Shown here one piece after another: positions 46,035 to 60,426 of a stretch of 64,000 bases of DNA (position 1 is its first letter; each line of letters begins with the position of its first letter). Source of the DNA: Melioribacter roseus (GTDB taxonomy: Bacteria; Bacteroidota; Ignavibacteria; Ignavibacteriales; Melioribacteraceae); assembly GCA_020722005.1 (NCBI GenBank), contig DYLP01000009.1, positions 12,227-76,226 on the forward strand, in the 5' to 3' direction. The notes beneath the pieces are model-generated. The model was not told where the DNA came from. It did not search any database and saw nothing but the letters and a program-made list of their open reading frames with translations. The position numbers and the translations under genes are program-made.

Positions 46035-46851
46035 AGCTCCCGCAAAAATAAATGTCGGTCTGAGAATCCTTCATAAAAGGAGCGACGGTTATCACAATTT
46101 GCATACGCTCTTTTATCCCGTTAATGATCTTTATGATGAAATTACTATTGAACGACAGGAAGAATTCGAATTTTATACAGATAACGAAGAACTGAATACA
46201 GCAGATAATCTAATCGTAAAAGCTGTTGAATTGCTCGGCGATTACTCGAAGAAAAAAATCGGAGCTAAAATTAAATTAAAGAAAAAAATACCCATGGGAG
46301 CAGGACTCGGCGGCGGCAGCTCGGATGCAGCGGCTGCTTTGATTTCTCTGAATGAAATGTTTGCGCTCAATCTTAGTTATAATGAACTAATTGAACTTGC
46401 TCTTAGATTGGGTTCGGATGTCCCGTTCTTCATAAAAGCAAAACCAGCCATTGGATATTCGAGAGGCGAAGTTCTGAAGCATGTCGATTTTGAAATTGAT
46501 AAACCGATATTAATAGTTAATCCAGGCATTCATATTCCGACAAAAGAAGCTTTTGGAAATATTGTCCCCGTAGATAAGGAACTTGATTATACAAAAGTTA
46601 TTGTTGAGGGTAAACCGAATTACGAAGCGATGAACAGCCTCGTCAACGATTTCGAAGATTATGCATTCAATCGATATCCTGAAATAAAAGAATTAAAAGA
46701 AAAATTTTATCATTATGGCTCTCTGTTTGCGCAGATGTCCGGAAGCGGTTCGACAGTCTACGGTATATTCGCAAGTGAATACGACGCCAAGAAAGTTATT
46801 CGAGATATTTCTCCAGATTACTTTTATCATTTATGTAATTATCCGGACTGA
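46015..46851 (+). CDS. ispE: 4-diphosphocytidyl-2-C-methyl-D-erythritol kinase
   Basis: PAKINVGL, PMGAGLGGGSSDAA, GSDVPFF and MSGSGS. Confidence 0.95.
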   Translation: MKYIEIKAPAKINVGLRILHKRSDGYHNLHTLFYPVNDLYDEITIERQEEFEFYTDNEELNTADNLIVKAVELLGDYSKKKIGAKIKLKKKIPMGAGLGGGSSDAAAALISLNEMFALNLSYNELIELALRLGSDVPFFIKAKPAIGYSRGEVLKHVDFEIDKPILIVNPGIHIPTKEAFGNIVPVDKELDYTKVIVEGKPNYEAMNSLVNDFEDYAFNRYPEIKELKEKFYHYGSLFAQMSGSGSTVYGIFASEYDAKKVIRDISPDYFYHLCNYPD

Positions 46852-48253
46852 TCTGAAAGATATCATAGGACTTCGGCTGGAAATTAAATTCAAGCGAAAC
46901 TTTAAAGCACGTACCGGGCATATCTCCTGCTAATCTTGAAGGGCTTTCTACGAATATATTTCCACCGAGGCGTTCAATAATTTCTTTTACCAATGCCAGA
47001 CCCAGCCCACTTCCTTCGTGTTCGCTCCTTTTTACATTCGAGGCTCTGTAAAACTGTTTAAATATATTAGGCAGGTCTTCTTTCGGAATTCCAATTCCAT
47101 TATCGCATATTTCGACCCATAACTTATCATTACTTTCATTGAGTAGTATTTCAATGATGCCCTCTTTTTTTACGTACTTGACAGAATTTGCAATCAGATT
47201 GGAGAACGCCAGTTCCAAAAGAATAATGTCCGACTTAATAATTTTCTTCTCTTTCCTTAAATCTTTGATTCTCAAATCGATAGCTTTGGCTTTGATTGTT
47301 TCATTTAGCTTGTCAATTAGACCGGAAAGCAATTCCCAAATATCGATTTCTTCTGTAGAGCGGATATCAAGCAATTTTAAACGGGATAATCGTAAAATAT
47401 TATTAAGCATTTGCAAAGTCTCATCCGTTCTTATTTGAGCCCTTTTGAGTTTATCTCTTATTTCGGAATTAATATCTCCAAGGAAGTTATTCAGTATCAA
47501 ATCAATTATTGATTTGATGGCAGTTACAGGAGTTTTGACTTCGTGAATAATTCCAATGGTGTATTTTTGTTTTGCTTTCTCGGCTTCGTCGAGGCGTTGC
47601 AATGTTTCTCGCAATTGCTGCTCACGCTTGTAGAGTTGTCTTACTATATTATTTGCGAGATAGACGCTTATAAAAATCATTGCAGTAAATGTTATTAAAC
47701 TCAGTATATCATAAGCCATCGTATGGGGTATCCTTACGTCGTATAAACCGCTTATTAAATGTGTCTCGATAACACCGAAATTTTGCATTATCGTTAAAAA
47801 GGACAACGTAAAGCATATAATGCATACTATGATATAAACTACGTATGCAGGAAGTATCAAACTCCCGATAATCATATGAAATATGAAAAATAAATAAAGA
47901 GGCGATTCGATGATTCCTGTATAATAAACAAGTACCAATAATGCAATCAGGTCGAGTATCATTTGAATCAAAGAAAGATGGAGACTATTGAAACTCGATA
48001 TATCACATTTAATGTATGCACGTAGTTTATAAAGGATAATATTGTACGAGAAGATTGAAATTGTAACGATAGATATGGCGATTTTCTGAAGTTTACTAAA
48101 TTGGAAGTTCAGTAAAAATTCACCTGCCGTTAGAAAAAGCAGCAGAGAAATTACGGCAAAATAGCGGAGCTTGATAAACCAAAGATTTCGAATACGAATA
48201 GCTCGCCAGAATTCGCCGTAATTCTTAGCCCATTCTGGTATAAGAGCTTTCAT
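46796..48253 (-). CDS. Membrane-bound sensor histidine kinase
   Basis: Multi-TM N-terminus; HEVKTP H-box, NLIANSVKY, DNGIGI and GSGLGL. Confidence 0.9.
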   Translation of the reverse strand: MKALIPEWAKNYGEFWRAIRIRNLWFIKLRYFAVISLLLFLTAGEFLLNFQFSKLQKIAISIVTISIFSYNIILYKLRAYIKCDISSFNSLHLSLIQMILDLIALLVLVYYTGIIESPLYLFFIFHMIIGSLILPAYVVYIIVCIICFTLSFLTIMQNFGVIETHLISGLYDVRIPHTMAYDILSLITFTAMIFISVYLANNIVRQLYKREQQLRETLQRLDEAEKAKQKYTIGIIHEVKTPVTAIKSIIDLILNNFLGDINSEIRDKLKRAQIRTDETLQMLNNILRLSRLKLLDIRSTEEIDIWELLSGLIDKLNETIKAKAIDLRIKDLRKEKKIIKSDIILLELAFSNLIANSVKYVKKEGIIEILLNESNDKLWVEICDNGIGIPKEDLPNIFKQFYRASNVKRSEHEGSGLGLALVKEIIERLGGNIFVESPSRLAGDMPGTCFKVSLEFNFQPKSYDIFQISPDNYINDKSNLEKYLE

Positions 48254-48361: not shown

Positions 48362-50278
48362 TCAAGCAATATATCTTCCCCGCTTTACATAATGAGTATG
48401 GAGTAGTTTATGCGATAAATGGCTGCACGGTCCTTCCCTCAAAAATTCTTTGTAAATCCTTATAACATTTGGATTTTCGTGCGACTTTCTGATTTCGAGG
48501 GATTCGTCTTCTGCATAGATTGCTTCGGCACGCTTCATACGAATTTCTGGAGTTGTTGGAATGGGCTGACCACCGCCGCCGAGACATCCACCCGGACAAG
48601 CCATAAACTCAATAAAATGGCACTCGGAGAATTTACCTCCTGATTTTATGTCTTCCATTATTTTCTTTGCATTTGCAGTTCCGTGTGCTACGGCTACTTT
48701 TAATGTAGCACCTTTCAGCCAGTTCCAATCGGGAATGAAATGTTTTATTAAATCGGGTACTCTTCCCACTTTATCTCCGATCGGAATTTCCATATACTTT
48801 ATGCCTTCAAATCCGCGTAGAGGAATAATGTTTGCTCTTTCGAAAATGTCTTCGGTTTTGTTTCCTGTTACGAATTCAACCACAGATCTTAAAGCCGCTT
48901 CCATTACTCCGCCTGTAGCGCCGAAAATAAGACCAGCGCCCGAAGCTTCGCCGAATGGTGAATCGAAATCGCTCTTAGGCATTTCAGGTAAATTTATTCC
49001 TGCTTCTTTAATCATTCGAGCCATTTCACGCGTCGTCAAACCGTAGTCGACATCTTTGTACCCGCTTGAATTCATTTCCGGTCGATTGCACTCGAACTTT
49101 TTAGCCGAACATGGCATCAATGCTACCGAAACAATATTTGCCGGGTCGATTCCTGCCTGCTGAGCATAAAATGTTTTAATCAATGCACCAAACATTTGCT
49201 GAGGCGACTTTGCCGAGCTTAAATTATCGAGATATTCCGGATAATAATGTTCGATGAATTTAACCCATCCAGGCGAGCAGGATGTAAATTGCGGGAGTGC
49301 AACTTTTCCCTTTTTTACCAGTGCATTGTAAAGACGGAGAATTAATTCAGTACCTTCTTCGATAATCGTGAGGTCTGCTGCAAAGTTAGTATCGAATACT
49401 TTGTCGAACCCAATTCGCCTAAGAGCAGTATTTAATTCTCTGGTCATAGATGTGCCGGCAGGCAGTCCGAATTCTTCGCCAATTGCTGCACGTGGCGACG
49501 GTGCAGTTTGAATGACGACGTGTTTTGTCGGTTCGTCGATTGCTTCCCATATTGCATCCGACGGGTCGTTTGCTCGCAAAGCACCCGTGGGACATCGATT
49601 AATACATTGTCCGCAATTGATACAAATTACATCTGCAAGGGGCTTTTCAAGGAAAGTGCCTATATGAGTTTTATCGCCTCTACCAATAGCTTCTAAAACA
49701 CCGACTTCCTGTAAATCGATACAAGTACGCACGCATCTTTTACAAAGGATGCATTTACTCATATCCCTTACGACTGAATACGATGAATTGTCAACTTCGA
49801 AACGTGGCTTGTCGATGTGTCCGAAAGTATAACTATCAACACCATATTCCTTTGCTAAGTTTTGCAATTCACAATTTCCATTACGAAAACATGTATAGCA
49901 TTCGCCATAATGTTCGCTGAGTAGTAAATCGATAATATGTCGACGGGCTTTGCGTACCATCGGAGATGAAGTTTTGATTTTTATGGGAGTGGTAATCGGA
50001 AAAGAACAGGACGCCTGTAATGTACGCATACCCTCGACTTCTACAACACATATACGACAAACGCCTGCAATACATAAATCATCATGATGACAAAGTGTTG
50101 GTATCGATATCCCGACTTTTTTGCAGGCTTCTAATATTGTAGTACCTAACGGAACGGAAATTTTCTTTTCGTTGATTTCAACTGAAACCGTACCACCAAT
50201 ACCCGTTATGTCCTCTGGTATTGGCACACTGTGTGGCACTTGACTTACGGGTACTCTGAAATCTCCTTTATTTCCCAT
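48362..50278 (-). CDS. hydA: Group A [FeFe]-hydrogenase catalytic subunit, copy 2 (M3 architecture)
   Basis: 2Fe-2S, His-ligated 4Fe-4S and 2x4Fe-4S domains; H-cluster motifs TSCSPGW, MPCSAKKFE and EFMACPGGCLGGGGQP. Start ATG 50278 follows GGAGG. Confidence 0.93.
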   Translation of the reverse strand: MGNKGDFRVPVSQVPHSVPIPEDITGIGGTVSVEINEKKISVPLGTTILEACKKVGISIPTLCHHDDLCIAGVCRICVVEVEGMRTLQASCSFPITTPIKIKTSSPMVRKARRHIIDLLLSEHYGECYTCFRNGNCELQNLAKEYGVDSYTFGHIDKPRFEVDNSSYSVVRDMSKCILCKRCVRTCIDLQEVGVLEAIGRGDKTHIGTFLEKPLADVICINCGQCINRCPTGALRANDPSDAIWEAIDEPTKHVVIQTAPSPRAAIGEEFGLPAGTSMTRELNTALRRIGFDKVFDTNFAADLTIIEEGTELILRLYNALVKKGKVALPQFTSCSPGWVKFIEHYYPEYLDNLSSAKSPQQMFGALIKTFYAQQAGIDPANIVSVALMPCSAKKFECNRPEMNSSGYKDVDYGLTTREMARMIKEAGINLPEMPKSDFDSPFGEASGAGLIFGATGGVMEAALRSVVEFVTGNKTEDIFERANIIPLRGFEGIKYMEIPIGDKVGRVPDLIKHFIPDWNWLKGATLKVAVAHGTANAKKIMEDIKSGGKFSECHFIEFMACPGGCLGGGGQPIPTTPEIRMKRAEAIYAEDESLEIRKSHENPNVIRIYKEFLREGPCSHLSHKLLHTHYVKRGRYIA

Positions 50279-51467
50279 TTCGACCTCCGTTCCCGTTAAA
50301 AATTTCTTCTTTGAAATTTTCCAATATCGATATAAATGCATTGGGACTCGATTGACCAAGACCACACTTAGAAGCTACTTTCATCGTTTGTCCTAATTCT
50401 TTTAATTTATTGATATAGGCAAAAGTATATTCACCTTTTTCTATCATTTCGATCCCTTCTGACAATTTTGTATTGCCTATACGACAAGGTGTGCACTGCC
50501 CGCACGATTCTTCGACGAAAAATTTCATGAAGTTTTTCAATACATGGAGCATATTTCTGTTTTCGCCGAATATCATAATTGATCCGCCTGTAGCTGCATC
50601 TTCATATGCAAGGCTCCGATTGAATTGAGATTTCGGTATACATATGCCGGAGGCTCCACCTACTTGAACGGCTTTAACAGATTTAGCTCCGACTATTTCG
50701 AGCAATTCATTTATTGTCGTTCCCCACGGCAATTCATACACGCCGGGGCGTTCACAATCACCTGATACTGAGAAAAGTTTCGAACCTGTAGATTTGTCGG
50801 TTCCATATTTCTTAAACCATTCTCCTCCTTTCAGAACAATGTGAGGAACAGCTGCAAGAGTTTCGACGTTATTTACAACCGTCGGCTTACCCATGTAACC
50901 AGTATTGACGGGATATGGTGGTCTGTTTCTAGCTTCGCCGCGATTGCCTTCGAGCGATTCAATTAATGCAGTTTCTTCGCCGCAGACATAAGCTCCAGAG
51001 CCAAGTCGGATTGTTATGTCGAAATCAAAGCCATTTTTACCGACTATATTTTTACCGAGTAAGTTATCTTTTCTCATAGCCTCCAGATAATCGTTCAATG
51101 ATTTAAGCATATATTCGTATTCCCCCCGCAGATAAACAATACCCTCTGATGCGCCGATTGTGTAACCTGCTATTACCATGCCGTCAAATACGAGTTCTGG
51201 GTATTCGAGTAATAAAGCCCTATCTTTGAAAGTTCCAGGTTCGCCTTCGTCTGCATTACAGATAATAAATTTTTTATCCGATTTGGCAGCGGCTACCATA
51301 TTCCATTTAGTTGCCGTCGGAAAACCTGCACCGCCCCTGCCTTTTAATTTCGATTCCCTTAGTTCGAAAAGAATTTCTTCGCGCGATTTTTCGAGCGCTT
51401 TTTTAATTGCTTCTCCCCTTTTGTATTCGGAGAAAAGTACTATTCCTTTTCTTTCTTTTTTCTCCAT
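50268..51467 (-). CDS. hydB: Short NuoF-like flavoprotein subunit (HydB, non-bifurcating type)
   Basis: GRGGAGFPT, NADEGEPGTFKDR, GAYVCGEETAL and ESCGQCTPCR; lacks the N-terminal 2Fe-2S and C-terminal 2x4Fe-4S domains. Confidence 0.88.
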   Translation of the reverse strand: MEKKERKGIVLFSEYKRGEAIKKALEKSREEILFELRESKLKGRGGAGFPTATKWNMVAAAKSDKKFIICNADEGEPGTFKDRALLLEYPELVFDGMVIAGYTIGASEGIVYLRGEYEYMLKSLNDYLEAMRKDNLLGKNIVGKNGFDFDITIRLGSGAYVCGEETALIESLEGNRGEARNRPPYPVNTGYMGKPTVVNNVETLAAVPHIVLKGGEWFKKYGTDKSTGSKLFSVSGDCERPGVYELPWGTTINELLEIVGAKSVKAVQVGGASGICIPKSQFNRSLAYEDAATGGSIMIFGENRNMLHVLKNFMKFFVEESCGQCTPCRIGNTKLSEGIEMIEKGEYTFAYINKLKELGQTMKVASKCGLGQSSPNAFISILENFKEEIFNGNGGRNGK

Positions 51468-51475
51468 AGCTCACC

Positions 51476-51949
51476 TCACTTTAATTCGCTTAGTATTTGG
51501 ATAGCTTTCTCAGGTGTCAATTTCGTATATACGTTTTCATTGACAATCATGGCTGGACCCTGGTCGCACATTCCGACGCAATTTGCATATTCAAGTGTAA
51601 ATTTATTGTCTTTTGTAGTTTGCCCGAATTTAATGCCGAGTTCTCTTTCGATGGCTTTTGCAACGGCTTCTTTGCCTTGCATATCGCATGCGATTGTCTG
51701 GCAGAGCCTGACGATATATTTCCCTTTTGGTGTAGTGCTGAGGAATGAATAGAAAGTAATTACACTGTAGATTTCGACGGGATGAATATCGAGTAAACGC
51801 GCTATTTCCTGCTGAGCAAAGTCGGGAATATGCTTATGTTTTCGTTGAATATCCTGTAGTATCGGAAGCAAAGAAGACCTGGAACGACCATATTTTTCGA
51901 CAAGTTGTTCTATCTCTTCGGTCATTGCATTTTTTTCTAAAACCAGCAT
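51476..51949 (-). CDS. hydC: NuoE-like 2Fe-2S subunit (HydC), copy 2
   Basis: CQTIAC...CVGMCDQGP. Confidence 0.88.
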   Translation of the reverse strand: MLVLEKNAMTEEIEQLVEKYGRSRSSLLPILQDIQRKHKHIPDFAQQEIARLLDIHPVEIYSVITFYSFLSTTPKGKYIVRLCQTIACDMQGKEAVAKAIERELGIKFGQTTKDNKFTLEYANCVGMCDQGPAMIVNENVYTKLTPEKAIQILSELK

Positions 51950-51950
51950 T

Positions 51951-52331
51951 TTATTTCACCTCCTTTGCTTTCAACAAATTATTGACCTTATTAATTAGTT
52001 CAGACGGTGAAATCGGTTTTTCCACGAAGTCTTCTACTGGTACCATTTCACTCTTGTCGTATTCCATTCCTGTGGCTTTTGAAACCGAGGTGTACATTAA
52101 AATTGGGGTTTTAATCCCTTCCTTACGAAATTTTTGAGCAAGGTAAAAACCATCATCCGGCTCGTCCATCATAACGTCGAGAATAATCAAATCGGGCTTT
52201 TGTTCTACGACAATTTTGTAGCCGTCGTGAGGATTGTCTGCAGTAACTATGTTATGCCCTTGCGATTTGAGTACAATAGAACTGCTGTCGAGGATGTCCG
52301 GATCATCATCGATGATTGCAATTAGAGCCAT
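51951..52331 (-). CDS. Single-domain response regulator
   Basis: IIDDD, phosphoacceptor ILDVMM, YTS and EKP; no output domain. Confidence 0.9.
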   Translation of the reverse strand: MALIAIIDDDPDILDSSSIVLKSQGHNIVTADNPHDGYKIVVEQKPDLIILDVMMDEPDDGFYLAQKFRKEGIKTPILMYTSVSKATGMEYDKSEMVPVEDFVEKPISPSELINKVNNLLKAKEVK

Positions 52332-52346
52332 ATGTCACTCCTGTAG

Positions 52347-53825
52347 TTATTTTATGTTTATGGGTAAATTGATTATAAATGTAGTCCCTTTACCAAATTC
52401 GGACTCCACTTCAATTTTACCGTGATAAGAGTCGACAATTATTTTGACGATACTCAATCCCAAACCAGTACCGCTTATACCGTGCGTCATTTCATTTTTG
52501 GCTCTGTAAAATTCATTGAAAAGTTTTGTTTTCTCTTCAGGTTTTAATCCGATACCTGTATCACTGATTTTTAGTATAAGGTAATTGTGGGATTTGTATA
52601 GCTCTATCTCAATTTTGCCGTTCGTATTATTGTATTTTATTGCATTACTCAACAGGTTGGTGACAACTCGCGTGATTTCGTTATAATCGGCATTTATTGC
52701 GGGAATGTTTTCATCGAGATGTGTTTCGATCGAGATGTTCTTTTTCTTTATGTCGAGTTCGAAAAACTGGAACGAGTTCTCGATTATCTCGCGAATATCA
52801 ATTTGTTCAATTTCCCTCTGTTTCGTATTTAATTCAATTCTCGAAATATCGAGAAGATCGTTAACAAGGTCGGTCAATCCTTTGAGACGCGTTAGAGAAC
52901 GCTTTAAATAGTCTTCCTGTTTTTCAGGTGATAGTTGTATCGATTTATCAATCATTATATTCAGGTAGCCCTGAACTGCGGCAAGTGGGGCTTTTAGTTC
53001 GTGTGCAACCATCGATACAAACTGCGATTTCAGCAATTCGATTTTTTTGTATTCTGTAATGTTGCTGATAATTAAAACAACACCGGCAAGACTACCGTCA
53101 GAATTTGGAATGGGCGTGGTTGAAAATTCCACTATAAGTTGATTGTTCGGTTTGAGTTCGATTTGCTGTGAATAACTTTTCAAGTGAAATGTTTCTGAGT
53201 AGAAAAGTTTATTTACCGTTTTGACTACTTTCTCCGGAAGAATATTTAGTATTTTACTGCCCAATTCAATTTCTGCGAGGTCGAGAAACTTGAGGGCGGC
53301 ATAGTTATAATAGACAAGCTCGGCATTTTTATTTATTACAAGAATGCCGTCGTTAATCGATTTAATTATTGCATTGAGGCGCGATTTTTCGTTTGCCAAC
53401 TCGAGTAGATTTTCTTCGCGTTCTTTTTTCAGTCTTTCCGATTCAAGTATTAATTTCCGTTGATTGATACCCTGCTCGATTTGATAAATAATTTCCTCAG
53501 GAGAAAAGGGCTTTGGTATATATCCGAAAGCACCCAGGCGTGTCGATTCAATAGCTGTTTCGTAACTTGCAAATGCAGTTGCGATAAAGCATACTGTATT
53601 AGGATGCACGGATTTAATCTCCTTAAGCACGGTTAATCCGTCCACATCCGGCATTTTAAGATCGATTATTGCAACGTCGAATTCTTTGGACTTGCCGAGT
53701 CGTATTCCTTCATTACCATTCGGTGCAGATTCCACGTAATAGCCTTCTTCTTCAAGAAGGCGTTCCGTTCCTAATCGTAATCCGTTTTCGTCGTCAACAA
53801 TTAATATTTTGGATTTTTCATCCAT
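52347..53825 (-). CDS. Cytoplasmic hybrid kinase: REC-PAS-HisKA-HATPase
   Basis: IVDDE/IIDLKMP receiver, PAS-like INDGILVIN...YYN, AHELKAPL, NLLSNAIKY and GTGLGL; no TM. Confidence 0.9.
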   Translation of the reverse strand: MDEKSKILIVDDENGLRLGTERLLEEEGYYVESAPNGNEGIRLGKSKEFDVAIIDLKMPDVDGLTVLKEIKSVHPNTVCFIATAFASYETAIESTRLGAFGYIPKPFSPEEIIYQIEQGINQRKLILESERLKKEREENLLELANEKSRLNAIIKSINDGILVINKNAELVYYNYAALKFLDLAEIELGSKILNILPEKVVKTVNKLFYSETFHLKSYSQQIELKPNNQLIVEFSTTPIPNSDGSLAGVVLIISNITEYKKIELLKSQFVSMVAHELKAPLAAVQGYLNIMIDKSIQLSPEKQEDYLKRSLTRLKGLTDLVNDLLDISRIELNTKQREIEQIDIREIIENSFQFFELDIKKKNISIETHLDENIPAINADYNEITRVVTNLLSNAIKYNNTNGKIEIELYKSHNYLILKISDTGIGLKPEEKTKLFNEFYRAKNEMTHGISGTGLGLSIVKIIVDSYHGKIEVESEFGKGTTFIINLPINIK

Positions 53826-53840
53826 TAAAGAATTTATTCA

Positions 53841-54221
53841 TTACATGTTTTTAAGTTTCGCAATCAATTCATCAATTACAACCGGTTTATTCAAAATCTC
53901 ATCGCACTTCAGCCATTCTTTTTCTTCGTTCGTCGAGGCGCTGAATTTAAATCCCGTTGTATAAGGCGCTGAAGTTATAATAAAAACAGGAACATTTGGA
54001 TTACTCTTTTTAATTCTGTGGCAGAGTATAAAGCCCGAATCCATCTCTTCCATTATCAAGTCGATAATGGCTACATTGGGATTTTCTTTCTGAAAAGCTT
54101 CCCAGCCTTTTGCGCCGTTTTCGGCTGTAATTACTTTATATCCTCTGGATTCTAATAATACTTTGTTCTGTTCGAGTAAATCGATATCGTCATCGACTAA
54201 CAGTATTTTTTTTACGTCCAT
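53841..54221 (-). CDS. Single-domain response regulator
   Basis: LVDDD, IIDLIM, ITS and NKP; no output domain. Confidence 0.9.
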   Translation of the reverse strand: MDVKKILLVDDDIDLLEQNKVLLESRGYKVITAENGAKGWEAFQKENPNVAIIDLIMEEMDSGFILCHRIKKSNPNVPVFIITSAPYTTGFKFSASTNEEKEWLKCDEILNKPVVIDELIAKLKNM

Positions 54222-54237
54222 TTTAACACCATCCTTT

Positions 54238-56220
54238 TTAATTCAATATCATATAATTTTGTTTAATAGGTAAAGTCACTTCAAATATAGAGCCTTCAGT
54301 CAGTTTGCTTTTGACTGTAATATCTCCTCTGTGCATTTTAATTATTCCATAGGTAATTGCGAGTCCTAAACCTGTTCCCTTTCCCATTTTTTTTGTAGTA
54401 AAGAAAGGCGTAAAAATTTTATTGAGATACTCTGGCTTTATTCCACAGCCTGTATCCGTAATGACAACTTTGATTTTGTTATCAGTCCCTGTAATAACAA
54501 CGGAAAGAACTTTATCTTTCGAATTTTCCATCGCTTCGCAAGCATTGATGATAATATTCATAAAGGCTTGTCTGAGCTGGTCGCGATCGCACTGTATTTT
54601 AACACCATTGGTTTTATCTTCAACTTTTAGCTCGATATTTCCAAACTCGCTGCGAATTTTAATCAGCTGAAAAATCGAATCGATAATCGACTTGATTTCA
54701 ATTTCTTCAAGACAAAGGCGTCCCTGTCGCGCGAAGTTCAAAAGGTTCGAAACAATTTTTTTACATCTTTCCGTTTCTTCAATTATTAATTTTAAGTCTT
54801 CGATACTTTGTTTTTCGCCGCCAAATTTTTCTATTTTTTTCTTTAACATGGAAGCATAGATTAATATTGAACCGAGTGGGTTGTTCAGTTCGTGAGCTAC
54901 TCCAGCTGCAAGTTGTCCTATAGAAGCAAGCTTTTCGGCATTAGCAAGTTGCTCCTGCGTTTCCTTTATTTCTTTATTGGCTTGTTCTAATTTGTCGATC
55001 AAATAAGGCAGACACATATCTTCTTCTGCCAGCCCTTTGGCAATTGCAATTGCATATTCCCTGCAAGTTGGATATCCGCAGGCGCCACAGTTGAGTTCAT
55101 CTGACTTGGAAGTTTTATTCGATTTTGCCAATATGAATCGTATTGTTTCTTCCGACGGCGTAGGTCTTCGCTGATTCCTAATTGTAAAATTTCTCGAAAG
55201 GTTAATATCCCGATTGTTGTACAAAGTGCTTTGCCATACTTTTTTGTCGAAAGAATTGATGTCCGATTCGATAAAAGAAATTACTTTTTCTCTGCGGGAG
55301 TAATAATTTAATTCGGAATCGATGGCAGGACCGTTAATGCAGCCTTCGCAAAATAAAATATCGACAAATTTCGATCTGATTTTTCTTCCGGAAATTTCGT
55401 TGAGAATCTCTTCTACTTTATCTTTCCCTTCGACAACAATTATTTCCTTCTCCAGAATGTCGCCGTGAGTGTCGGTAGTTTTCAATAGACCGCCAGTTAA
55501 CGGATAAGCCTTTCCCATGTAAGCATGAGGTGGATCGAAAGACGAACTGTCGAGCGAATTAAGATTTATCTGCTTCCGTTCAAAAATTTGTTTTATCTCT
55601 TTGAATGTAAGTACAGCATCGATTGCGCCTTCAACCTCAGGGTCGAGGTATTCGCTTTTCTTTGCAATGCATGGACCGATAAATACAACTTTAATATGGT
55701 TGCCGTAATTTTTCTTAAGGAATCTTCCCATTGCTATCATCGGAGAAACAACAGTTGCAAGATTATCGGCAATTTCCACAAAGTATTTTGTAATCCAATT
55801 ATAAATTGCCGGACAGGGAGAACTAATTATTGTTTTGCCAGGATTGTTTTCTATGTAAGTTTTATATTTATCACTTATAAGGTCTGCACCGAAAGCTGCT
55901 TCGCTTACATGTTTGAATCCGAGTTGTTTTAGAGCTGTAATGAAATGTTTTTCAACTCCTGGAAACGAAGCCGGAAAAGAAGGTGCTACAATTGCATAAG
56001 TATCGTAAAAAGGAATAAATTCATTCAAAACAATTCCTACATCGTTGAGCACCTGTTTGGCGTTTTGAGAACAAACTTTTACACAATGCCCACAGACAAT
56101 ACATCGTTCTTCAATTACTACTGCCTGTCCGTTAAATACGCGTATTGCTCGAGCAGGACATTCCCTGACGCAGGAATAGCATCTTTTACATCTTTGTCCT
56201 ATGGTTGATACAATTCCCAT
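54238..56220 (-). CDS. Putative sensory [FeFe]-hydrogenase fused to a histidine kinase (group C1-like HydS-HK)
   Basis: 2x4Fe-4S; degenerate H-domain motifs SSPCPA, GPCIAKKSE and LFCEGCINGP; FeS motif NCGACGYPTC...C; then AHELNNPL, NACEA and GTGLGL. Confidence 0.88.
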   Translation of the reverse strand: MGIVSTIGQRCKRCYSCVRECPARAIRVFNGQAVVIEERCIVCGHCVKVCSQNAKQVLNDVGIVLNEFIPFYDTYAIVAPSFPASFPGVEKHFITALKQLGFKHVSEAAFGADLISDKYKTYIENNPGKTIISSPCPAIYNWITKYFVEIADNLATVVSPMIAMGRFLKKNYGNHIKVVFIGPCIAKKSEYLDPEVEGAIDAVLTFKEIKQIFERKQINLNSLDSSSFDPPHAYMGKAYPLTGGLLKTTDTHGDILEKEIIVVEGKDKVEEILNEISGRKIRSKFVDILFCEGCINGPAIDSELNYYSRREKVISFIESDINSFDKKVWQSTLYNNRDINLSRNFTIRNQRRPTPSEETIRFILAKSNKTSKSDELNCGACGYPTCREYAIAIAKGLAEEDMCLPYLIDKLEQANKEIKETQEQLANAEKLASIGQLAAGVAHELNNPLGSILIYASMLKKKIEKFGGEKQSIEDLKLIIEETERCKKIVSNLLNFARQGRLCLEEIEIKSIIDSIFQLIKIRSEFGNIELKVEDKTNGVKIQCDRDQLRQAFMNIIINACEAMENSKDKVLSVVITGTDNKIKVVITDTGCGIKPEYLNKIFTPFFTTKKMGKGTGLGLAITYGIIKMHRGDITVKSKLTEGSIFEVTLPIKQNYMILN

Positions 56221-56224
56221 CAGT

Positions 56225-57955
56225 TCATAATTCTTCTAATATTTTTTTTCTGTTGACGTAAGTAGTATGCAATAACTCGTGTGACAGATGACTATTCGGT
56301 TCTCCTAAAAATTCGTTATAGAGTTTTTTGAGAGATTCATTCTCGTGAGATTTTCTGTGTTTCATTTTTGCATCTATTTCATAGAGAGCGCGGGCGCGTT
56401 TTTCTACTTTTTCTGGTTTTTGATGAATTGGCTGACCGCCACCATTTATGCATCCGCCCGGGCATGCCATTACTTCGATGAAATGATATTTAGATTCGCC
56501 TTTTTCGATTTGCTCTAGAATTCCGCGAACATTTCCGATTCCGTTTACAACCGCAACATTGACAGTTGTGCCGTTAATATCGACTGAATATTCTTTTACT
56601 CCGTCGAAGCCTCGTACGTCTGTCAAATCCACGTTTTCTAATTCTTTACCGGAAAGTTTGAAATATGCAGTTCTCAGAGCCGCTTCCATAACGCCGCCGC
56701 TTGTACCGAAAATTGCGGCTGCCCCGGTCGATTCTCCCAGAGGATCGTCGAACTCGTCGTCCGGTAAATCGTTAAAATCGATGCCCGCAACTTTAAAAAG
56801 ACGAACTAACTCTCTTGTGGTCAGAACGGCATCAACGTCTGGCAATTTTGCTTCGGAAAGTTCTGGTCTGCTGGCTTCGAATTTTTTAACCGTACAAGGC
56901 ATTATCGAAACTACAAAAATGTCTTCCGGATTAAGTCCCATTTTTTTTGCATAATACGATTTAATTATAGCCCCTTCCATTTCATGCGGCGATTTACAGG
57001 TTGAAATATGATCGAGCAAATGCGGATAATTTTGTTCGGCAAATTTAATCCATCCAGGGCAGCAACTTGTGAACATCGGAATAGTTCCGCCATTGCTGAG
57101 TCGATTTATGAGTTCTGTGGCTTCTTCGATAATTGTTAAGTCCGCGCCAAAATTCGTATCAAATACTTTATCGAAACCGAGTCTTCTTAGACCTGTAATT
57201 ATTTTACCAGTCACGTTTGTACCAATTGGAAGATTATATTCTTCACCCAAAGTTGCTCTGACGGCAGGTGCAATCTGAGCAACCGTGAATTTCTTTTTGT
57301 CATTTAATGCGTTTACAACTTCTTTTGCATGGCTTCTTTCACGGAGTGCAGCGGTAGGACAAACAAGTATACATTGCCCACATAGTATACAATCGCTGAC
57401 ATTTAGACCTTTGTTAAATGGAGTTGTTACGTTACTTTTGAAACCTCTGTTTGTAAAATCAATTGCGCCAATTTTCTGAATTTCATTGCATGTTCTTACA
57501 CATCTTCCGCATAGTATACATTTAGCAGGGTCGCGTTCCATCGATGGGCTCGAAATATCGATTGCGTGATTTTTCTTTTCGCCTACGTATCTGTGTTCTC
57601 TAATATTGTAGCGTTCTGATAAGTCCTGGAGTTCGCAATTCTTATTTCTAACACAAATCAGACAATCCTGTGGATGATTTTCAATTAATAGTTCTATAAT
57701 TGTTTTTCTGGCTACTCTTACTCTTGATGAGTTAGTTTGAATTTTCATCCCCTCTTTGACAGGGTAGGCGCAACTCGGAATAAGATTTCTCATTCCATCT
57801 ACTTCTACAACACAAATTCTGCATGCACCGGAAGGGAATAAATCTTTCATATAGCATAAGGTCGGGATATGAATCCCTACGGATTTAGCTGCTTCGAGTA
57901 TAGTCATTCCTTCTTCGGCTTTTACTTTTATATCGTTGATTGTTAATTCTATCAT
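56225..57955 (-). CDS. hydA: Group A3 [FeFe]-hydrogenase catalytic subunit, copy 1
   Basis: M3 Fe-S domains; TSCCPGW, MPCTVKKFE and EVMACPGGCINGGGQP. Confidence 0.95.
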   Translation of the reverse strand: MIELTINDIKVKAEEGMTILEAAKSVGIHIPTLCYMKDLFPSGACRICVVEVDGMRNLIPSCAYPVKEGMKIQTNSSRVRVARKTIIELLIENHPQDCLICVRNKNCELQDLSERYNIREHRYVGEKKNHAIDISSPSMERDPAKCILCGRCVRTCNEIQKIGAIDFTNRGFKSNVTTPFNKGLNVSDCILCGQCILVCPTAALRERSHAKEVVNALNDKKKFTVAQIAPAVRATLGEEYNLPIGTNVTGKIITGLRRLGFDKVFDTNFGADLTIIEEATELINRLSNGGTIPMFTSCCPGWIKFAEQNYPHLLDHISTCKSPHEMEGAIIKSYYAKKMGLNPEDIFVVSIMPCTVKKFEASRPELSEAKLPDVDAVLTTRELVRLFKVAGIDFNDLPDDEFDDPLGESTGAAAIFGTSGGVMEAALRTAYFKLSGKELENVDLTDVRGFDGVKEYSVDINGTTVNVAVVNGIGNVRGILEQIEKGESKYHFIEVMACPGGCINGGGQPIHQKPEKVEKRARALYEIDAKMKHRKSHENESLKKLYNEFLGEPNSHLSHELLHTTYVNRKKILEEL

Positions 57956-57973: not shown

Positions 57974-59959
57974 TTAATTTACTTTAATTGCGTCAAAACG
58001 GCACGATTCAAAGCACATACCACATTTGGTACATTTAATCTGAATAATCTGATGCGGTTGTTTCTTTTCGCCTATGATTGCTTCGGCCGGACATTTACGT
58101 AAACAGATACCGCAGCCAGTGCATACTTCGGGATCGATTTCGTATGTTAATAATTCTTTACATACTTTGGCGCGGCACTTCCTTTCAAAAAGATGTTCTT
58201 CGTATTCTTCCCTGAAATAGCGCAAGCCCGACAATACTGGATTAGGTGCACTCTGACCTAATCCGCATAATGACGTATCCTGAATTACTTTAGCGAGTCT
58301 CTGAAGATGAATAATCCCTTTGAAACGCTGAAGTTGTTCGGTTTTATCTCCGTTGGTTCCGTATCGAACAGGAATTCTTTCGATAATTTCGAGCATTCTT
58401 TTTGTCCCTTCACGACATGGAACGCATTTACCGCACGATTCATTTTGAATGAATGTTAGGAAAAATTTTGCTACGTCGACCATACAGGTATCTTCATCCA
58501 TAACAACAAAGCCGCCGGAACCCATCATTGCACCAATTTCCCTTAATGATTCATAATCGACTTCAGTATCGAGGACACAATCAGGTAAACATCCGCCAGA
58601 GGGACCGCCAATTTGAACTGCTTTGAATTTTTTGTTGTTCGGAATACCGCCCCCGATGTCGAAGACTACTTCACGCAGAGTAATTCCCATTGGCACTTCG
58701 ACAAGTCCGCTGTTGACAACTTTACCGCTCAATGCGAAAACTTTTGTGCCTTTGCTTGTCTTTGTGCCAATTGATGCAAACGATGCTGCTCCAATGTTTA
58801 TAATCGAAGGTACATTTGCAAAAGTTTCTACATTGTTGATCACGGTAGGTTTACCCCATAAACCACTATCAACAGGATAAGGAGGTCGGGGACGTGGCAT
58901 ACCTCTTTTCCCTTCGATCGAAGCAATTAATGCAGTTTCTTCGCCACATACAAAAGCGCCTGCCCCTTTCTTAATTTTAAGGTCAAAATCGAAATCGCTA
59001 TTAAGTATATTTTTACCGAGCAGACCGTATTCTCTGCATTTAAGAATTGCCTCTTCAAGTCTTTCAATTGCAAGCGGATATTCTGCACGACAGTAGATAT
59101 ATCCATAAGAAGCACCAATTGCGTAAGCTCCTATAATCATTCCTTCAATAACTCTGTAAGGATCGCTTTCCAGTACAGACCTGTCCATAAAGGCTCCGGG
59201 GTCACCCTCGTCCGCATTACAAATTATATATTTTGTATCCGAATTTTTTTTATGTGCGAGTTCCCACTTAATTCCTGTCGGGAAACCGCCTCCCCCTCTT
59301 CCTCTAAGTCCGCTGGCTTTAATTTCTTCAATTACCTTTTCAGGACTGAGAATTCGAAGTGCTTTATCTAAGGCTTTAAATCCATCGGAAGCTATGTATT
59401 CATCAATAGAATTTGGATTTATAACGCCACAATTTTTGAGAACAACTTTTTTCTGCCTTTTGAAAAAAGGAATTTCATTAATATTTGGAATATGGTCTTT
59501 TGTTTCACCATAGGTACCGAGTAATTTTTTCTTATATATTTTTCTCTCGATTATAGTGGTTTTTATCAGTTCTTTGACGTCTTTGGGTTGAATTTCACAA
59601 TATGAAACCCTGTCTTCACCCGCTAATTTGATATCGACTATTGGTTCTCTGGCACAATATCCAACGCATCCGGTAGGTACAACCAGAGCTTTAATATTTT
59701 CATTGGCGAGTTCTTCTTCGATTGCAGTTTTCACTTTATCTGCACCCGAAGCCAGTCCACAGGTGCCCATACCGATAAATATTACTGGAACTTTTGTTGA
59801 CTCGTAGCGCAGCTTTTCGTTAAGACCTTTATATTTTTCTTTACATTTATCGTCTTTATGACAAAGAGGTCCTTCAAGACAGCAAGCTACAAAAAGCTCG
59901 CATGGTTTACTGGGGGAATGCCAGCACTGGTCACAACATTTTTCAATAAAACTTTTCAT
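57974..59959 (-). CDS. hydB: Long HydB flavoprotein subunit (bifurcating type)
   Basis: Thioredoxin-like 2Fe-2S domain, NADEGDPGAFMDR, GAFVCGEET, ESCGKCVPC and C-terminal 2x4Fe-4S; Cys-rich N-terminal extension. Confidence 0.92.
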   Translation of the reverse strand: MKSFIEKCCDQCWHSPSKPCELFVACCLEGPLCHKDDKCKEKYKGLNEKLRYESTKVPVIFIGMGTCGLASGADKVKTAIEEELANENIKALVVPTGCVGYCAREPIVDIKLAGEDRVSYCEIQPKDVKELIKTTIIERKIYKKKLLGTYGETKDHIPNINEIPFFKRQKKVVLKNCGVINPNSIDEYIASDGFKALDKALRILSPEKVIEEIKASGLRGRGGGGFPTGIKWELAHKKNSDTKYIICNADEGDPGAFMDRSVLESDPYRVIEGMIIGAYAIGASYGYIYCRAEYPLAIERLEEAILKCREYGLLGKNILNSDFDFDLKIKKGAGAFVCGEETALIASIEGKRGMPRPRPPYPVDSGLWGKPTVINNVETFANVPSIINIGAASFASIGTKTSKGTKVFALSGKVVNSGLVEVPMGITLREVVFDIGGGIPNNKKFKAVQIGGPSGGCLPDCVLDTEVDYESLREIGAMMGSGGFVVMDEDTCMVDVAKFFLTFIQNESCGKCVPCREGTKRMLEIIERIPVRYGTNGDKTEQLQRFKGIIHLQRLAKVIQDTSLCGLGQSAPNPVLSGLRYFREEYEEHLFERKCRAKVCKELLTYEIDPEVCTGCGICLRKCPAEAIIGEKKQPHQIIQIKCTKCGMCFESCRFDAIKVN

Positions 59960-60426
59960 TCTATACTCACTGCTTGTTCTTGTTTTTTGTACTTATTGAG
60001 AATTTTAGGTATTTCTTTAACGGTCACTCGTCCATAATAATCGTCGTTAATATTAATAACCGGAGCGATACTACAGGCTCCCATACATGCTACAGTTTCG
60101 AGTGTAAATAATTTATCTCGTGTAGTTTGACCCGCGCAAATGCCCAGTTCGTTTTCTAGTGCTGTTAAAATATTAGCTGAATTTTTAACATGGCACGCTG
60201 TTCCCCGGCAAACTCGAATAATATTCTTGCCAAGTGGTGTTAAACGAAACTGATTGTAAAATGTAGCCACGCCGTAAACGCCGCTCACAGACATTCCGAT
60301 GTGGTCGGCAACCTTACGTATTTCTTCCTCAGGTAAATAGCCATAAACTTCCTGGAGATCCTGAAGCATAGCTATTAAATTACTACGGTCATTTTTGGGA
60401 TATTTCTGAAAAATATTGCCTTCCAT
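59956..60426 (-). CDS. hydC: NuoE-like 2Fe-2S subunit (HydC), copy 1
   Basis: VCRGTACHV...CMGACSIAP. Confidence 0.92.
   Translation of the reverse strand: MEGNIFQKYPKNDRSNLIAMLQDLQEVYGYLPEEEIRKVADHIGMSVSGVYGVATFYNQFRLTPLGKNIIRVCRGTACHVKNSANILTALENELGICAGQTTRDKLFTLETVACMGACSIAPVININDDYYGRVTVKEIPKILNKYKKQEQAVSIE

What the first reader, a model, noticed from the sequence alone, without database searches (positions are those of the whole stretch)
50268..51467. Diagnostic residues separate the two HydB subunits (T-K-Y versus A-M-F)
Seen: the short HydB has GEPGTFKDR and GAYVCGEE (399 aa, one 4Fe-4S motif). The long HydB has GDPGAFMDR and GAFVCGEE plus extra Fe-S domains (661 aa). Knowledge: comparative work on syntroph hydrogenases associated Ala/Met/Phe plus extra clusters with bifurcation and NuoF-like residues with non-bifurcating enzymes (recalled). 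Inference: a non-bifurcating NADH-dependent [FeFe]-hydrogenase in a polysaccharide degrader outside the classical syntrophs.
Basis: partly seen in the sequence, partly recalled or inferred. Interest (0 to 1): 0.65.

Follow-up and report, generated by a model that had tools for sequence, protein, structure and literature searches.

The report
Non-bifurcating-type HydB hydrogenase flavoprotein subunit
A Melioribacter-like bacterium carries, beside a standard ferredoxin-plus-NADH (bifurcating) iron hydrogenase, a second one whose NADH-binding subunit has every published sequence hallmark of the NADH-only type; the call is sound, but the same prediction was already published for its 81%-identical counterpart in Ignavibacterium album, so it is ordinary.

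Summary
The 399-aa ORF at 50268-51467 (-) is a bare NuoF-like flavoprotein with T79/K81/Y160, GGASG and one [4Fe-4S] motif. The 661-aa paralogue at 57974-59959 (-) has A256/M258/F336, GGPSG, an N-terminal Cys-rich/[2Fe-2S] part and a C-terminal 2x[4Fe-4S] domain.

These are the criteria of Losey et al. 2020 (PMC7311640), and the short protein meets all of them. It also lacks the Zn-hinge ligands and the ferredoxin-docking C-terminal domain that cryo-EM work ties to bifurcation.

It sits in a hydC2-hydB2-hydA2 unit. That order recurs in 26 of 28 relatives with at least 54% identity, across several phyla. In a 148-sequence tree it lies outside the A/M/F clade that holds Thermotoga HydB and the long paralogue.

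The most likely function is a ferredoxin-independent, reversible NADH:H+ oxidoreductase. This is predicted, not shown.

The idea is not new. Losey's Table S1 lists the 81.5%-identical Ignavibacterium album protein as non-bifurcating and notes such enzymes in non-syntrophs that also hold bifurcating ones.

Two side observations are more interesting. A receiver-only response regulator gene lies directly upstream of hydC in 21 of 43 syntenic loci. The partner HydA almost always carries TSCSPGW, the serine variant seen in Acetobacterium woodii HydA1.

The parts
50268..51467 (-). hydB2: short (399 aa) NuoF-like FMN/NADH flavoprotein with one [4Fe-4S] (N3-type) motif; T79, K81, Y160, GGASG 270-274; no N- or C-terminal Fe-S domains
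   Evidence: 81.5% identical to I. album YP_005845236
51476..51949 (-). hydC2: NuoE-like thioredoxin-like [2Fe-2S] subunit (157 aa; Cys 83, 88, 124, 128). It ends with TGA 8 nt before the hydB2 ATG, so the two are not fused here
48362..50278 (-). hydA2: catalytic [FeFe]-hydrogenase subunit (638 aa from ATG 50278; the open frame runs up to GTG 50365). It has a NuoG-like N-terminal F-domain plus an H-domain, with L1 TSCSPGW (Ser335), L2 MPCSAKKFE and L3 MACPGGCLGGGGQP. It overlaps hydB2 by 11 nt
   Evidence: best solved relative is A. woodii HydA1 (7q4v_A)
51951..52331 (-). Receiver-only response regulator (126 aa), 1 nt upstream of hydC2. A homologous receiver-only gene sits in the same place in 21 of 43 syntenic loci from several phyla
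57974..59959 (-). hydB1: long (661 aa) bifurcating-type flavoprotein used for comparison. A256, M258, F336, GGPSG 451-455; putative Zn-hinge ligands (C492 in DTCMVD; H589, C595, C600, my inference from the alignment); C-terminal 2x[4Fe-4S]; N-terminal Cys-rich leader plus [2Fe-2S] domain
59956..60426 (-). hydC1: NuoE-like subunit of the bifurcating-type set
56225..57955 (-). hydA1: catalytic subunit of the bifurcating-type set (576 aa, L1 TSCCPGW)
52347..56220 (-). Signalling block between the two hydrogenase sets: HydS-like H-domain fused to a histidine kinase (54238-56220), a receiver (53841-54221) and a receiver-PAS-kinase (52347-53825)
46796..48253 (-). Membrane histidine kinase 108 nt downstream of hydA2. 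A homologue follows hydA2 in 13 of 43 syntenic loci

Best explanation
hydC2-hydB2-hydA2 most likely encodes a cytoplasmic heterotrimeric [FeFe]-hydrogenase of the non-bifurcating, NAD(H)-linked type, like Syntrophomonas wolfei Hyd1ABC.

Proposed mechanism (inferred): NADH gives a hydride to the FMN of HydB2. Electrons then pass one at a time through the single [4Fe-4S] of HydB2 and the F-clusters of HydA2 to the H-cluster, where protons are reduced. There is no second branch to ferredoxin, because HydB2 lacks the C-terminal 2x[4Fe-4S] domain on which ferredoxin docks, the Zn hinge and the N-terminal [2Fe-2S] domain.

The reaction should be reversible. By analogy with the characterised enzymes, it should run towards H2 only at a few to a few tens of Pa of H2. 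At higher H2 it would run towards NADH.

The neighbouring hydC1-hydB1-hydA1 set is a canonical bifurcating/confurcating HydABC.

Shown here: domain content, diagnostic residues, gene linkage, tree position, and the presence of maturases, Rnf, 2-oxoacid:ferredoxin oxidoreductases and a separate NuoEF in the genome. Inferred: cofactor specificity, independence from ferredoxin, and physiological direction.
For: - All four residue criteria and the domain criterion of Losey et al. 2020 are met: T79, K81, Y160, GGASG, and no extra Fe-S domains.
- The protein is 81.5% identical to I. album YP_005845236, which that paper lists as non-bifurcating.
- The alignment with T. maritima HydB shows the Cys/His positions that I infer to be the Zn-site ligands, and the whole C-terminal ferredoxin domain, are absent. 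Furlan 2022 states that this domain is present in all characterised bifurcating [FeFe]-hydrogenases and absent in non-bifurcating ones. Katsyv 2023 place ferredoxin docking on it and report low bifurcation activity after its deletion. Schut 2022 state that non-bifurcating homologues lack clusters B2-B5 and the F/A/M residues.
- FastTree of 148 cores: a 35-leaf clade (support 0.92) holds all 30 A/M/F sequences, T. maritima HydB and the long HydB1. The short HydB2 lies in a 96-leaf, mostly T/K/Y clade (support 0.87) with Syntrophothermus lipocalidus HydB.
- The hydC-hydB(short)-hydA order is kept in 43 of 80 related loci, and in 26 of 28 with at least 54% identity.
- HydA2 has intact L1-L3 motifs. 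HydG and HydF are present in the genome above their family cut-offs.
- In M. roseus the orthologous proteins MROS_2487/2488 were detected only under fermentation (PMC5492636).
Against: - No enzyme of this subclade has been assayed. Only S. wolfei, S. aciditrophicus and Caecomyces churrovis enzymes define the type.
- HydB2 is not sister to the Syntrophomonadaceae sequence in the tree. The T/K/Y assemblage also holds flavoproteins whose downstream neighbour lacks an H-domain (probably formate dehydrogenase or another NAD-linked enzyme; 37 of 80 loci). T/K/Y therefore marks 'ordinary NADH site', not 'hydrogenase'.
- By raw score, the core of HydB2 is slightly closer to solved bifurcating-type beta subunits (339-351 bits) than to Aquifex NuoF (315 bits).
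- HydA2's closest solved relative is the bifurcating A. woodii HydA1.
- Both hydrogenase sets lie in one tightly packed co-oriented gene run. The simple idea of separate transcriptional switching is therefore not supported here.
- NADH versus NADPH specificity was not tested.
Confidence: 0.77

Rival explanations
1. The enzyme type is as above, but the physiological role is H2 uptake. In this reading HydA2B2C2 works mainly as an NAD+-reducing hydrogenase that feeds NADH to the respiratory chain, or recycles H2, in this facultative anaerobe, rather than disposing of NADH as H2.
For: The characterised non-bifurcating enzymes are reversible (abstract of PMC7311640). The genome has a complex I with its own NuoEF. 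Melioribacter respires with several acceptors (PMC3534657). NADH-driven H2 evolution needs very low H2, 2-40 Pa.
Against: In M. roseus the orthologues were detected only in fermenting cells, not in aerobic ones. H2 is a fermentation product of M. roseus. No data on direction exist.
Confidence: 0.2
2. HydA2B2C2 still couples ferredoxin and NADH (bifurcation/confurcation) by a non-canonical route. One possibility is ferredoxin binding at the distal F-clusters of HydA2. Another is mixed assembly with the long HydB1 encoded in the same gene run.
For: HydA2 belongs to the same HydA subfamily as the bifurcating A. woodii HydA1, including the serine in L1. Both sets are apparently co-transcribed. Non-canonical bifurcating [FeFe]-hydrogenases have been proposed in other phyla (title and abstract of PMC11406978).
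Against: HydB2 lacks every element that structures and mutagenesis tie to the ferredoxin branch: the C-terminal domain, the Zn site and the A/M/F residues. The three assayed enzymes with this architecture are ferredoxin-independent. The hydC2-hydB2-hydA2 unit also occurs on its own in many genomes.
Confidence: 0.07
3. HydC2/HydB2 is a NuoEF-type NADH module that serves another enzyme (complex I, formate dehydrogenase), and its position next to hydA2 is incidental.
For: More distant homologues (54% identity or less) are followed by a NuoG-like gene without an H-domain (37 of 80 loci). One close relative (L027, 62% identity) has no H-domain hit downstream.
Against: hydA2 overlaps hydB2 by 11 nt. 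26 of 28 relatives with at least 54% identity keep a HydA directly downstream. The genome has a separate NuoE/NuoF in a nuoABCDEF cluster on contig C17.
Confidence: 0.03

Closest known systems
Ignavibacterium album JCM 16511 YP_005845236 (409 aa), predicted non-bifurcating HydB in Table S1 of Losey et al. 2020
   Same: 81.5% identity over 389 aa. Same T/K/Y and GGASG, same length class, same phylum. Together with representative P0121 they form a clade with support 1.0.
   Different: 10 fewer N-terminal residues here. Neither protein has been characterised.
Syntrophomonas wolfei Hyd1ABC (Losey 2017) and its Syntrophothermus lipocalidus homologue Slip_0124
   Same: Trimeric alpha-beta-gamma layout. 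Beta subunit of about 400 aa with T/K/Y, no GGPSG and no extra Fe-S domains. Both lie in the same broad T/K/Y clade outside the bifurcating clade.
   Different: Different subclade, with roughly 45% identity expected. I could only use the S. lipocalidus sequence as a stand-in for S. wolfei. The host is a fermenting/respiring polysaccharide degrader that also has a bifurcating HydABC, Rnf and ferredoxin-reducing oxidoreductases.
Syntrophus aciditrophicus HydAB (Losey 2020)
   Same: Non-bifurcating type. Many of the nearest representatives of HydB2, and locus L023, carry the same gamma-beta fusion. The M. roseus orthologue was annotated as fused.
   Different: Here hydC2 and hydB2 are separate genes, with a TGA stop and an 8-nt spacer.
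Electron-bifurcating HydABC of Thermotoga maritima, Acetobacterium woodii and Thermoanaerobacter kivui (7P5H, 7Q4V, 8A6T)
   Same: Homologous alpha, beta and gamma subunits. The HydB2 core scores 335-339 bits against these HydB chains. HydA2 is most similar to A. woodii HydA1 and shares its Ser in TSCSPGW.
   Different: HydB2 lacks the N-terminal [2Fe-2S] domain, the inferred Zn-hinge ligands, the C-terminal B3/B4 ferredoxin domain and the A/M/F residues. The long HydB1 in the same window has all of them.
Respiratory complex I NuoF/Nqo1 with NuoE/Nqo2
   Same: Same domain set (Complex1_51K, SLBB, NADH_4Fe-4S). Ser/Thr-Lys-Tyr at the NADH/FMN sites.
   Different: Not in a nuo operon. The genome's own NuoF (442 aa, contig C17) is a distinct paralogue.
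Caecomyces churrovis hydrogenosomal Hyd-NuoEF (mBio 2026, PMC13556243)
   Same: [quoted passage not shown]
   Different: Eukaryotic. Its NuoF is of mitochondrial complex I origin and is not related by descent to bacterial HydB.

Membership tests
Non-bifurcating NADH-dependent [FeFe]-hydrogenase beta subunit (criteria of Losey et al. 2020) | Thr or Ser at TmHydB position 232 | tested here: met
   T79 aligns with Tm A232
Non-bifurcating NADH-dependent [FeFe]-hydrogenase beta subunit (criteria of Losey et al. 2020) | Lys, Ser or Ala at TmHydB position 234 | tested here: met
   K81 aligns with Tm M234
Non-bifurcating NADH-dependent [FeFe]-hydrogenase beta subunit (criteria of Losey et al. 2020) | Tyr instead of Phe at the FMN site (TmHydB 312) | tested here: met
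   Y160 aligns with Tm F312
Non-bifurcating NADH-dependent [FeFe]-hydrogenase beta subunit (criteria of Losey et al. 2020) | No GGPSG in the SLBB region (TmHydB 427-431) | tested here: met
   GGASG at 270-274. This criterion is weaker than the others, because 14 T/K/Y representatives do carry GGPSG
Non-bifurcating NADH-dependent [FeFe]-hydrogenase beta subunit (criteria of Losey et al. 2020) | No additional Fe-S domains on the beta subunit | tested here: met
   Pfam finds only Complex1_51K, SLBB and NADH_4Fe-4S. There are 18 residues before and 2 after the aligned core, with no Cys in either
Non-bifurcating NADH-dependent [FeFe]-hydrogenase beta subunit (criteria of Losey et al. 2020) | Encoded with a NuoE-like gamma subunit and an H-cluster alpha subunit | tested here: met
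   hydC2 is 8 nt upstream and hydA2 overlaps by 11 nt. The order is conserved in 43 of 80 related loci
Non-bifurcating NADH-dependent [FeFe]-hydrogenase beta subunit (criteria of Losey et al. 2020) | Branches outside the clade of bifurcating beta subunits | tested here: met
   It is excluded from the 35-leaf A/M/F clade (support 0.92) and lies inside a 96-leaf, mostly T/K/Y clade with S. lipocalidus HydB (support 0.87). The S. wolfei and S. aciditrophicus sequences themselves were not available
Non-bifurcating NADH-dependent [FeFe]-hydrogenase beta subunit (criteria of Losey et al. 2020) | Ferredoxin-independent H2:NAD+ / NADH:H+ activity | not testable with these tools
   Needs the purified enzyme
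Bfu / HydABC electron-bifurcating family (BfuB core; Schut 2022, Furlan 2022, Katsyv 2023) | [quoted passage not shown] | tested here: not met
   The short HydB ends 2 residues after the core. The long HydB1 has CTGCGICLRKCP and CTKCGMCFESC
Bfu / HydABC electron-bifurcating family (BfuB core; Schut 2022, Furlan 2022, Katsyv 2023) | Zn (or B2) site with three Cys and one His at the hinge | tested here: not met
   The short HydB has NRNMLH where the long one has DTCMVD, and it has no H...C...C tail. Which residues are the ligands is my inference from the alignment, not taken from the structure files
Bfu / HydABC electron-bifurcating family (BfuB core; Schut 2022, Furlan 2022, Katsyv 2023) | N-terminal thioredoxin-like [2Fe-2S] domain on the beta subunit | tested here: not met
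   Only 18 residues precede the core
Bfu / HydABC electron-bifurcating family (BfuB core; Schut 2022, Furlan 2022, Katsyv 2023) | Conserved Ala/Met/Phe at the NADH and FMN sites | tested here: not met
   T/K/Y instead
Respiratory complex I NuoF | Encoded within a nuo gene cluster and partnered with NuoG | tested here: not met
   It is flanked by hydC2 and hydA2. A separate NuoF lies in nuoABCDEF on contig C17

The most novel reading that the evidence does not exclude
The short-type hydrogenase may be controlled at the protein level by a phosphorelay. A receiver-only response regulator gene lies directly upstream of hydC in this window. The same is true in 21 of 43 syntenic loci from Ignavibacteriota, Kapabacteria, Chlorobi-like, Acidobacteriota, Myxococcota, Planctomycetota and Actinomycetota. 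Here that gene ends a HydS-kinase / receiver / receiver-PAS-kinase / receiver chain that has no DNA-binding output, inside one gene run that also encodes the bifurcating enzyme.

The phosphorylated receiver could bind HydC2B2A2 and gate NADH-linked H2 turnover according to the sensed H2. The cell would then switch between bifurcating and non-bifurcating H2 metabolism without changing transcription.
Probability: 0.1. Interest if true: 0.7.

Novelty: new member of a known kind. Interest (0 to 1): 0.22.

Why it matters
The finding corrects a detail of Melioribacter physiology. The 2013 genome paper treated all its [FeFe]-hydrogenases as bifurcating, whereas one of them is of the NADH-only type.

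An organism with both types, plus Rnf, could send NADH straight to H2 when H2 consumers keep H2 very low, and keep reduced ferredoxin for Rnf-linked energy conservation. This bears on H2 budgets and on loose syntrophy of polysaccharide degraders in subsurface and mat communities. The principle was already stated by Losey et al. 2020, so the gain is one more annotated example, not a new concept.

Tried and rejected
- I first read the Ser in HydA2's TSCSPGW as loss of the proton-relay cysteine. That was wrong. It replaces the second Cys, a ligand of the [4Fe-4S] part of the H-cluster. The active A. woodii HydA1 has the same Ser301 with no effect on the H-cluster infrared signature.
- The genome-contig scan returned 80 loci but none from Syntrophomonas or Syntrophus. 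I used sequences copied from Losey's supplementary alignment instead (I. album, S. lipocalidus, D. mccartyi, S. glycolicus, D. dehalogenans, R. papyrosolvens, T. maritima). Their lengths matched the published ones.
- The listing of cluster members named only a few neighbours, all MAGs (Marinimicrobia, Glassbacteria, Bacteroidales), and gave no functional anchor.
- The sigma-70 promoter and terminator scan found fewer sites than the shuffles. It says nothing about internal promoters in this phylum.
- The single-polypeptide PFOR model (TIGR02176) gave no hit above its cut-off. Two POR_N-containing oxidoreductase genes are present.
- I did not run structure prediction, because domain content and ligand positions were already clear from the sequence.
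Full report
**What is there.** The minus strand between 48362 and 60426 carries ten closely packed genes:
- hydC1 (59956-60426)
- hydB1 (57974-59959, 661 aa)
- hydA1 (56225-57955, 576 aa)
- a HydS-like H-domain fused to a histidine kinase (54238-56220)
- a receiver (53841-54221)
- a receiver-PAS-kinase (52347-53825)
- a receiver (51951-52331)
- hydC2 (51476-51949, 157 aa)
- hydB2 (50268-51467, 399 aa)
- hydA2 (48362-50278, 638 aa)

A membrane histidine kinase follows after 108 nt (46796-48253). The finding concerns hydB2.

The organism is a Melioribacter-like member of the Ignavibacteriota. The closest named proteins, at 95-96% identity, are from Melioribacter sp. Ez-97 and OK-6-Me. The assembly is 2.66 Mb and 99% complete.

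**Check of the observation.** All quoted strings are present.
- HydB2 has GEPGTFKDR (T79, K81), GAYVCGEE (Y160), GGASG (270-274) and one cluster motif (C322, C325, C328, C368).
- HydB1 has GDPGAFMDR (A256, M258), GAFVCGEE (F336) and GGPSG (451-455). It also has an N-terminal extension of about 190 aa with 13 Cys and a C-terminal pair of CxxCxxCxxxCP-type motifs.
- Pfam sees Complex1_51K, SLBB and NADH_4Fe-4S in both proteins, and Fer4 dicluster domains only in HydB1.

**The recalled knowledge is real.** Losey et al. 2020 (PMC7311640) set out the criteria, using T. maritima HydB numbering. Bifurcating beta subunits have Ala/Glu at 232, Met at 234, Phe at the FMN site, GGPSG at 427-431 and extra Fe-S domains. 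Non-bifurcating ones have Thr/Ser, Lys/Ser/Ala, Tyr, no GGPSG and fewer clusters.

I copied T. maritima HydB from their supplementary alignment (626 aa, as published) and aligned it. A232, M234, F312 and GGPSG 427-431 line up with T79, K81, Y160 and GGASG in HydB2, and with A256, M258, F336 and GGPSG in HydB1.

**Is the pairing more than chance?** I searched HydB2 against 1.84 billion cluster representatives. I aligned the hits of at least 370 aa among the best 150, together with named anchors. Among these 151 sequences:
- 24 of 30 A/M/F proteins have a C-terminal extension with at least 8 Cys.
- 87 of 91 T/K/Y proteins have no Cys-bearing C-terminal extension, and only one has 8 or more Cys.
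- GGPSG is the weakest criterion, since 14 T/K/Y proteins carry it.

**Independent structural criteria.**
- Furlan et al. [quoted passage not shown] They state that this domain, with clusters B3/B4, is present in all characterised bifurcating [FeFe]-hydrogenases and absent from the non-bifurcating NAD-dependent ones.
- Katsyv et al. 2023 place ferredoxin docking on this domain and report low bifurcation activity when it is deleted.
- Schut et al. 2022 state that non-bifurcating homologues lack clusters B2-B5 and the conserved F/A/M residues.

In my alignment HydB1 has DTCMVD and EEHLFERKCRAKVC followed by the two ferredoxin motifs. HydB2 has NRNMLH at the first place and simply ends after the four-helix bundle. 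HydB2 therefore fails every tested membership feature of the bifurcating family and meets every sequence feature of the non-bifurcating type.

**Phylogeny.** I built a FastTree (LG+gamma) on 380 core columns of 148 sequences, rooted on the genome's own NuoF.
- All 30 A/M/F sequences, T. maritima HydB and HydB1 fall in one 35-leaf clade (support 0.92).
- HydB2 groups with I. album YP_005845236 and representative P0121 (support 1.0).
- That group lies inside a 96-leaf, mostly T/K/Y clade (support 0.87). This clade also holds Syntrophothermus lipocalidus HydB, my stand-in for the characterised S. wolfei Hyd1B, and Syntrophobotulus glycolicus.

HydB2 is not sister to the Syntrophomonadaceae sequence. 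Many of its nearest non-Ignavibacteriota neighbours are NuoE-NuoF fusions, like S. aciditrophicus HydB.

**Partner and context.** A scan of one genome per species returned 80 related loci.
- 43 have a HydA with an H-domain directly downstream of the short HydB, including 26 of the 28 with at least 54% identity. They come from Ignavibacteriota, Kapabacteria, Chlorobi-like, Acidobacteriota, Myxococcota, Planctomycetota, Actinomycetota, Fusobacteriota and Bacteroidales.
- The other 37 include most of the more distant loci. In 33 of them the downstream gene is NuoG-like but has no H-domain, probably formate dehydrogenase or another NAD-linked enzyme. In the other four nothing NuoG-like was detected, and three of those contigs end soon after hydB.

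T/K/Y alone therefore marks an ordinary NADH site. It is the conserved link to HydA that makes this a hydrogenase subunit.

The genome inventory is as follows:
- Only three H-domain genes, all in this window.
- Five Complex1_51K genes: HydB1, HydB2, a true NuoF inside nuoABCDEF on contig C17, RnfC, and a PduS/RnfC-like protein.
- HydG and HydF maturases.
- Two POR_N oxidoreductase genes.

**Function.** The best-supported reading is a ferredoxin-independent, reversible NADH:H+ oxidoreductase. The purified S. aciditrophicus enzyme gave 2.2-40.2 Pa H2 at NADH/NAD+ ratios of 1-5. NADH-driven H2 evolution here would therefore need H2 scavenging, and at higher H2 the enzyme would reduce NAD+.

In M. 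roseus the orthologues MROS_2487/2488 were detected only in fermenting cells. That fits a role in fermentative redox balance but does not fix the direction. I put 0.77 on the non-bifurcating NAD(H)-linked reading. None of this is biochemical evidence for this protein.

**Novelty.** Low.
- Losey's Table S1 lists I. album YP_005845236 (409 aa, T/K/Y, GGASG) as non-bifurcating, and the 661-aa proteins of I. album and M. roseus as bifurcating. HydB2 is 81.5% identical to that I. album protein.
- Their Discussion names Ignavibacterium among non-syntrophs with such enzymes. It notes genomes with both types and suggests use according to H2 level.
- What is added here is small. The Melioribacter lineage has the type too, although the M. 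roseus genome paper called all three of its hydrogenases bifurcating, and this genome has only two catalytic hydrogenases.
- Two earlier follow-up notes of this scan on related genomes reached the same verdict. They are not independent evidence.

**Side observations.**
1. HydA2 carries TSCSPGW (Ser335) where HydA1 has TSCCPGW. Across the related loci I found 42 TSCSPGW motifs, at least 40 of them in the HydA just downstream of the short HydB. Two such partners (L019, L021) have TSCCPGW. The same serine (Ser301) occurs in the active bifurcating A. woodii HydA1, where it replaces a Cys ligand of the [4Fe-4S] part of the H-cluster without changing its infrared signature. It is a subfamily trait, not a defect.
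2. A receiver-only gene of 121-137 aa sits directly upstream of hydC in 21 of the 43 syntenic loci, all within the subclade of at least 54% identity, across several phyla. It occurs in only 1 of 37 non-syntenic loci.
3. No gene in the signalling block has a DNA-binding domain.

Noticed in passing
window 51951-52331 (-); loci L009-L035: A receiver-only response regulator gene (121-137 aa) lies directly upstream of hydC in 21 of 43 loci with hydC-hydB(short)-hydA synteny. These come from Ignavibacteriota, Kapabacteria, Chlorobi-like, Acidobacteriota, Myxococcota, Planctomycetota and Actinomycetota. It occurs in only 1 of 37 loci where the short NuoF-like gene is not followed by a HydA.
   Followed up: partly
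window 49274-49276 (Ser335 codon of hydA2, motif TSCSPGW); loci L009-L086: In the related loci TSCSPGW occurs 42 times, at least 40 of them in the HydA just downstream of the short HydB; two such partners have TSCCPGW. The bifurcating-set HydA1 has TSCCPGW. The serine replaces a Cys ligand of the [4Fe-4S] part of the H-cluster and is also found in the active A. woodii HydA1 (Ser301).
   Followed up: partly
window 48362-50278 (-): Relative to HydA1, HydA2 has a 29-residue N-terminal extension, a 6-residue insert before L1 and a 21-residue insert (GDKVGRVPDLIKHFIPDWNWL) before L3. The open frame also extends 29 codons further upstream to a GTG at 50365.
   Followed up: no
window 59800-59959 (-): The long HydB1 begins with a leader of about 45 residues rich in Cys and His, ahead of its [2Fe-2S] domain. 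T. maritima HydB has no such leader in the alignment.
   Followed up: no
window 52347-56220 (-): The signalling block between the two hydrogenase sets (HydS-like H-domain fused to a kinase, a receiver, a receiver-PAS-kinase) has no DNA-binding output domain in any gene.
   Followed up: no
whole genome G000: This 99%-complete genome has only two catalytic [FeFe]-hydrogenase genes plus the sensor, all in this window. M. roseus P3M-2 is reported to have three sets, so the MROS_0634-0636 set has no counterpart here.
   Followed up: partly
locus L023:5476-7179; representatives P0122-P0128: In many close relatives hydC and hydB are fused into one polypeptide of about 570-610 aa, as in Syntrophus aciditrophicus HydB. 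The M. roseus orthologue MROS_2487 was also annotated as fused, whereas here a TGA stop and 8 nt separate the two genes.
   Followed up: partly
locus L027 (Thermoanaerobaculum aquaticum MAG): This relative is 62% identical and also has the upstream receiver gene. It has no H-domain hit in the 5.8 kb of contig downstream of hydB, and the gene that follows matches only the NuoG-like N-terminal part of HydA2 (43% identity). The same NADH module and receiver may serve a different catalytic partner there.
   Followed up: no
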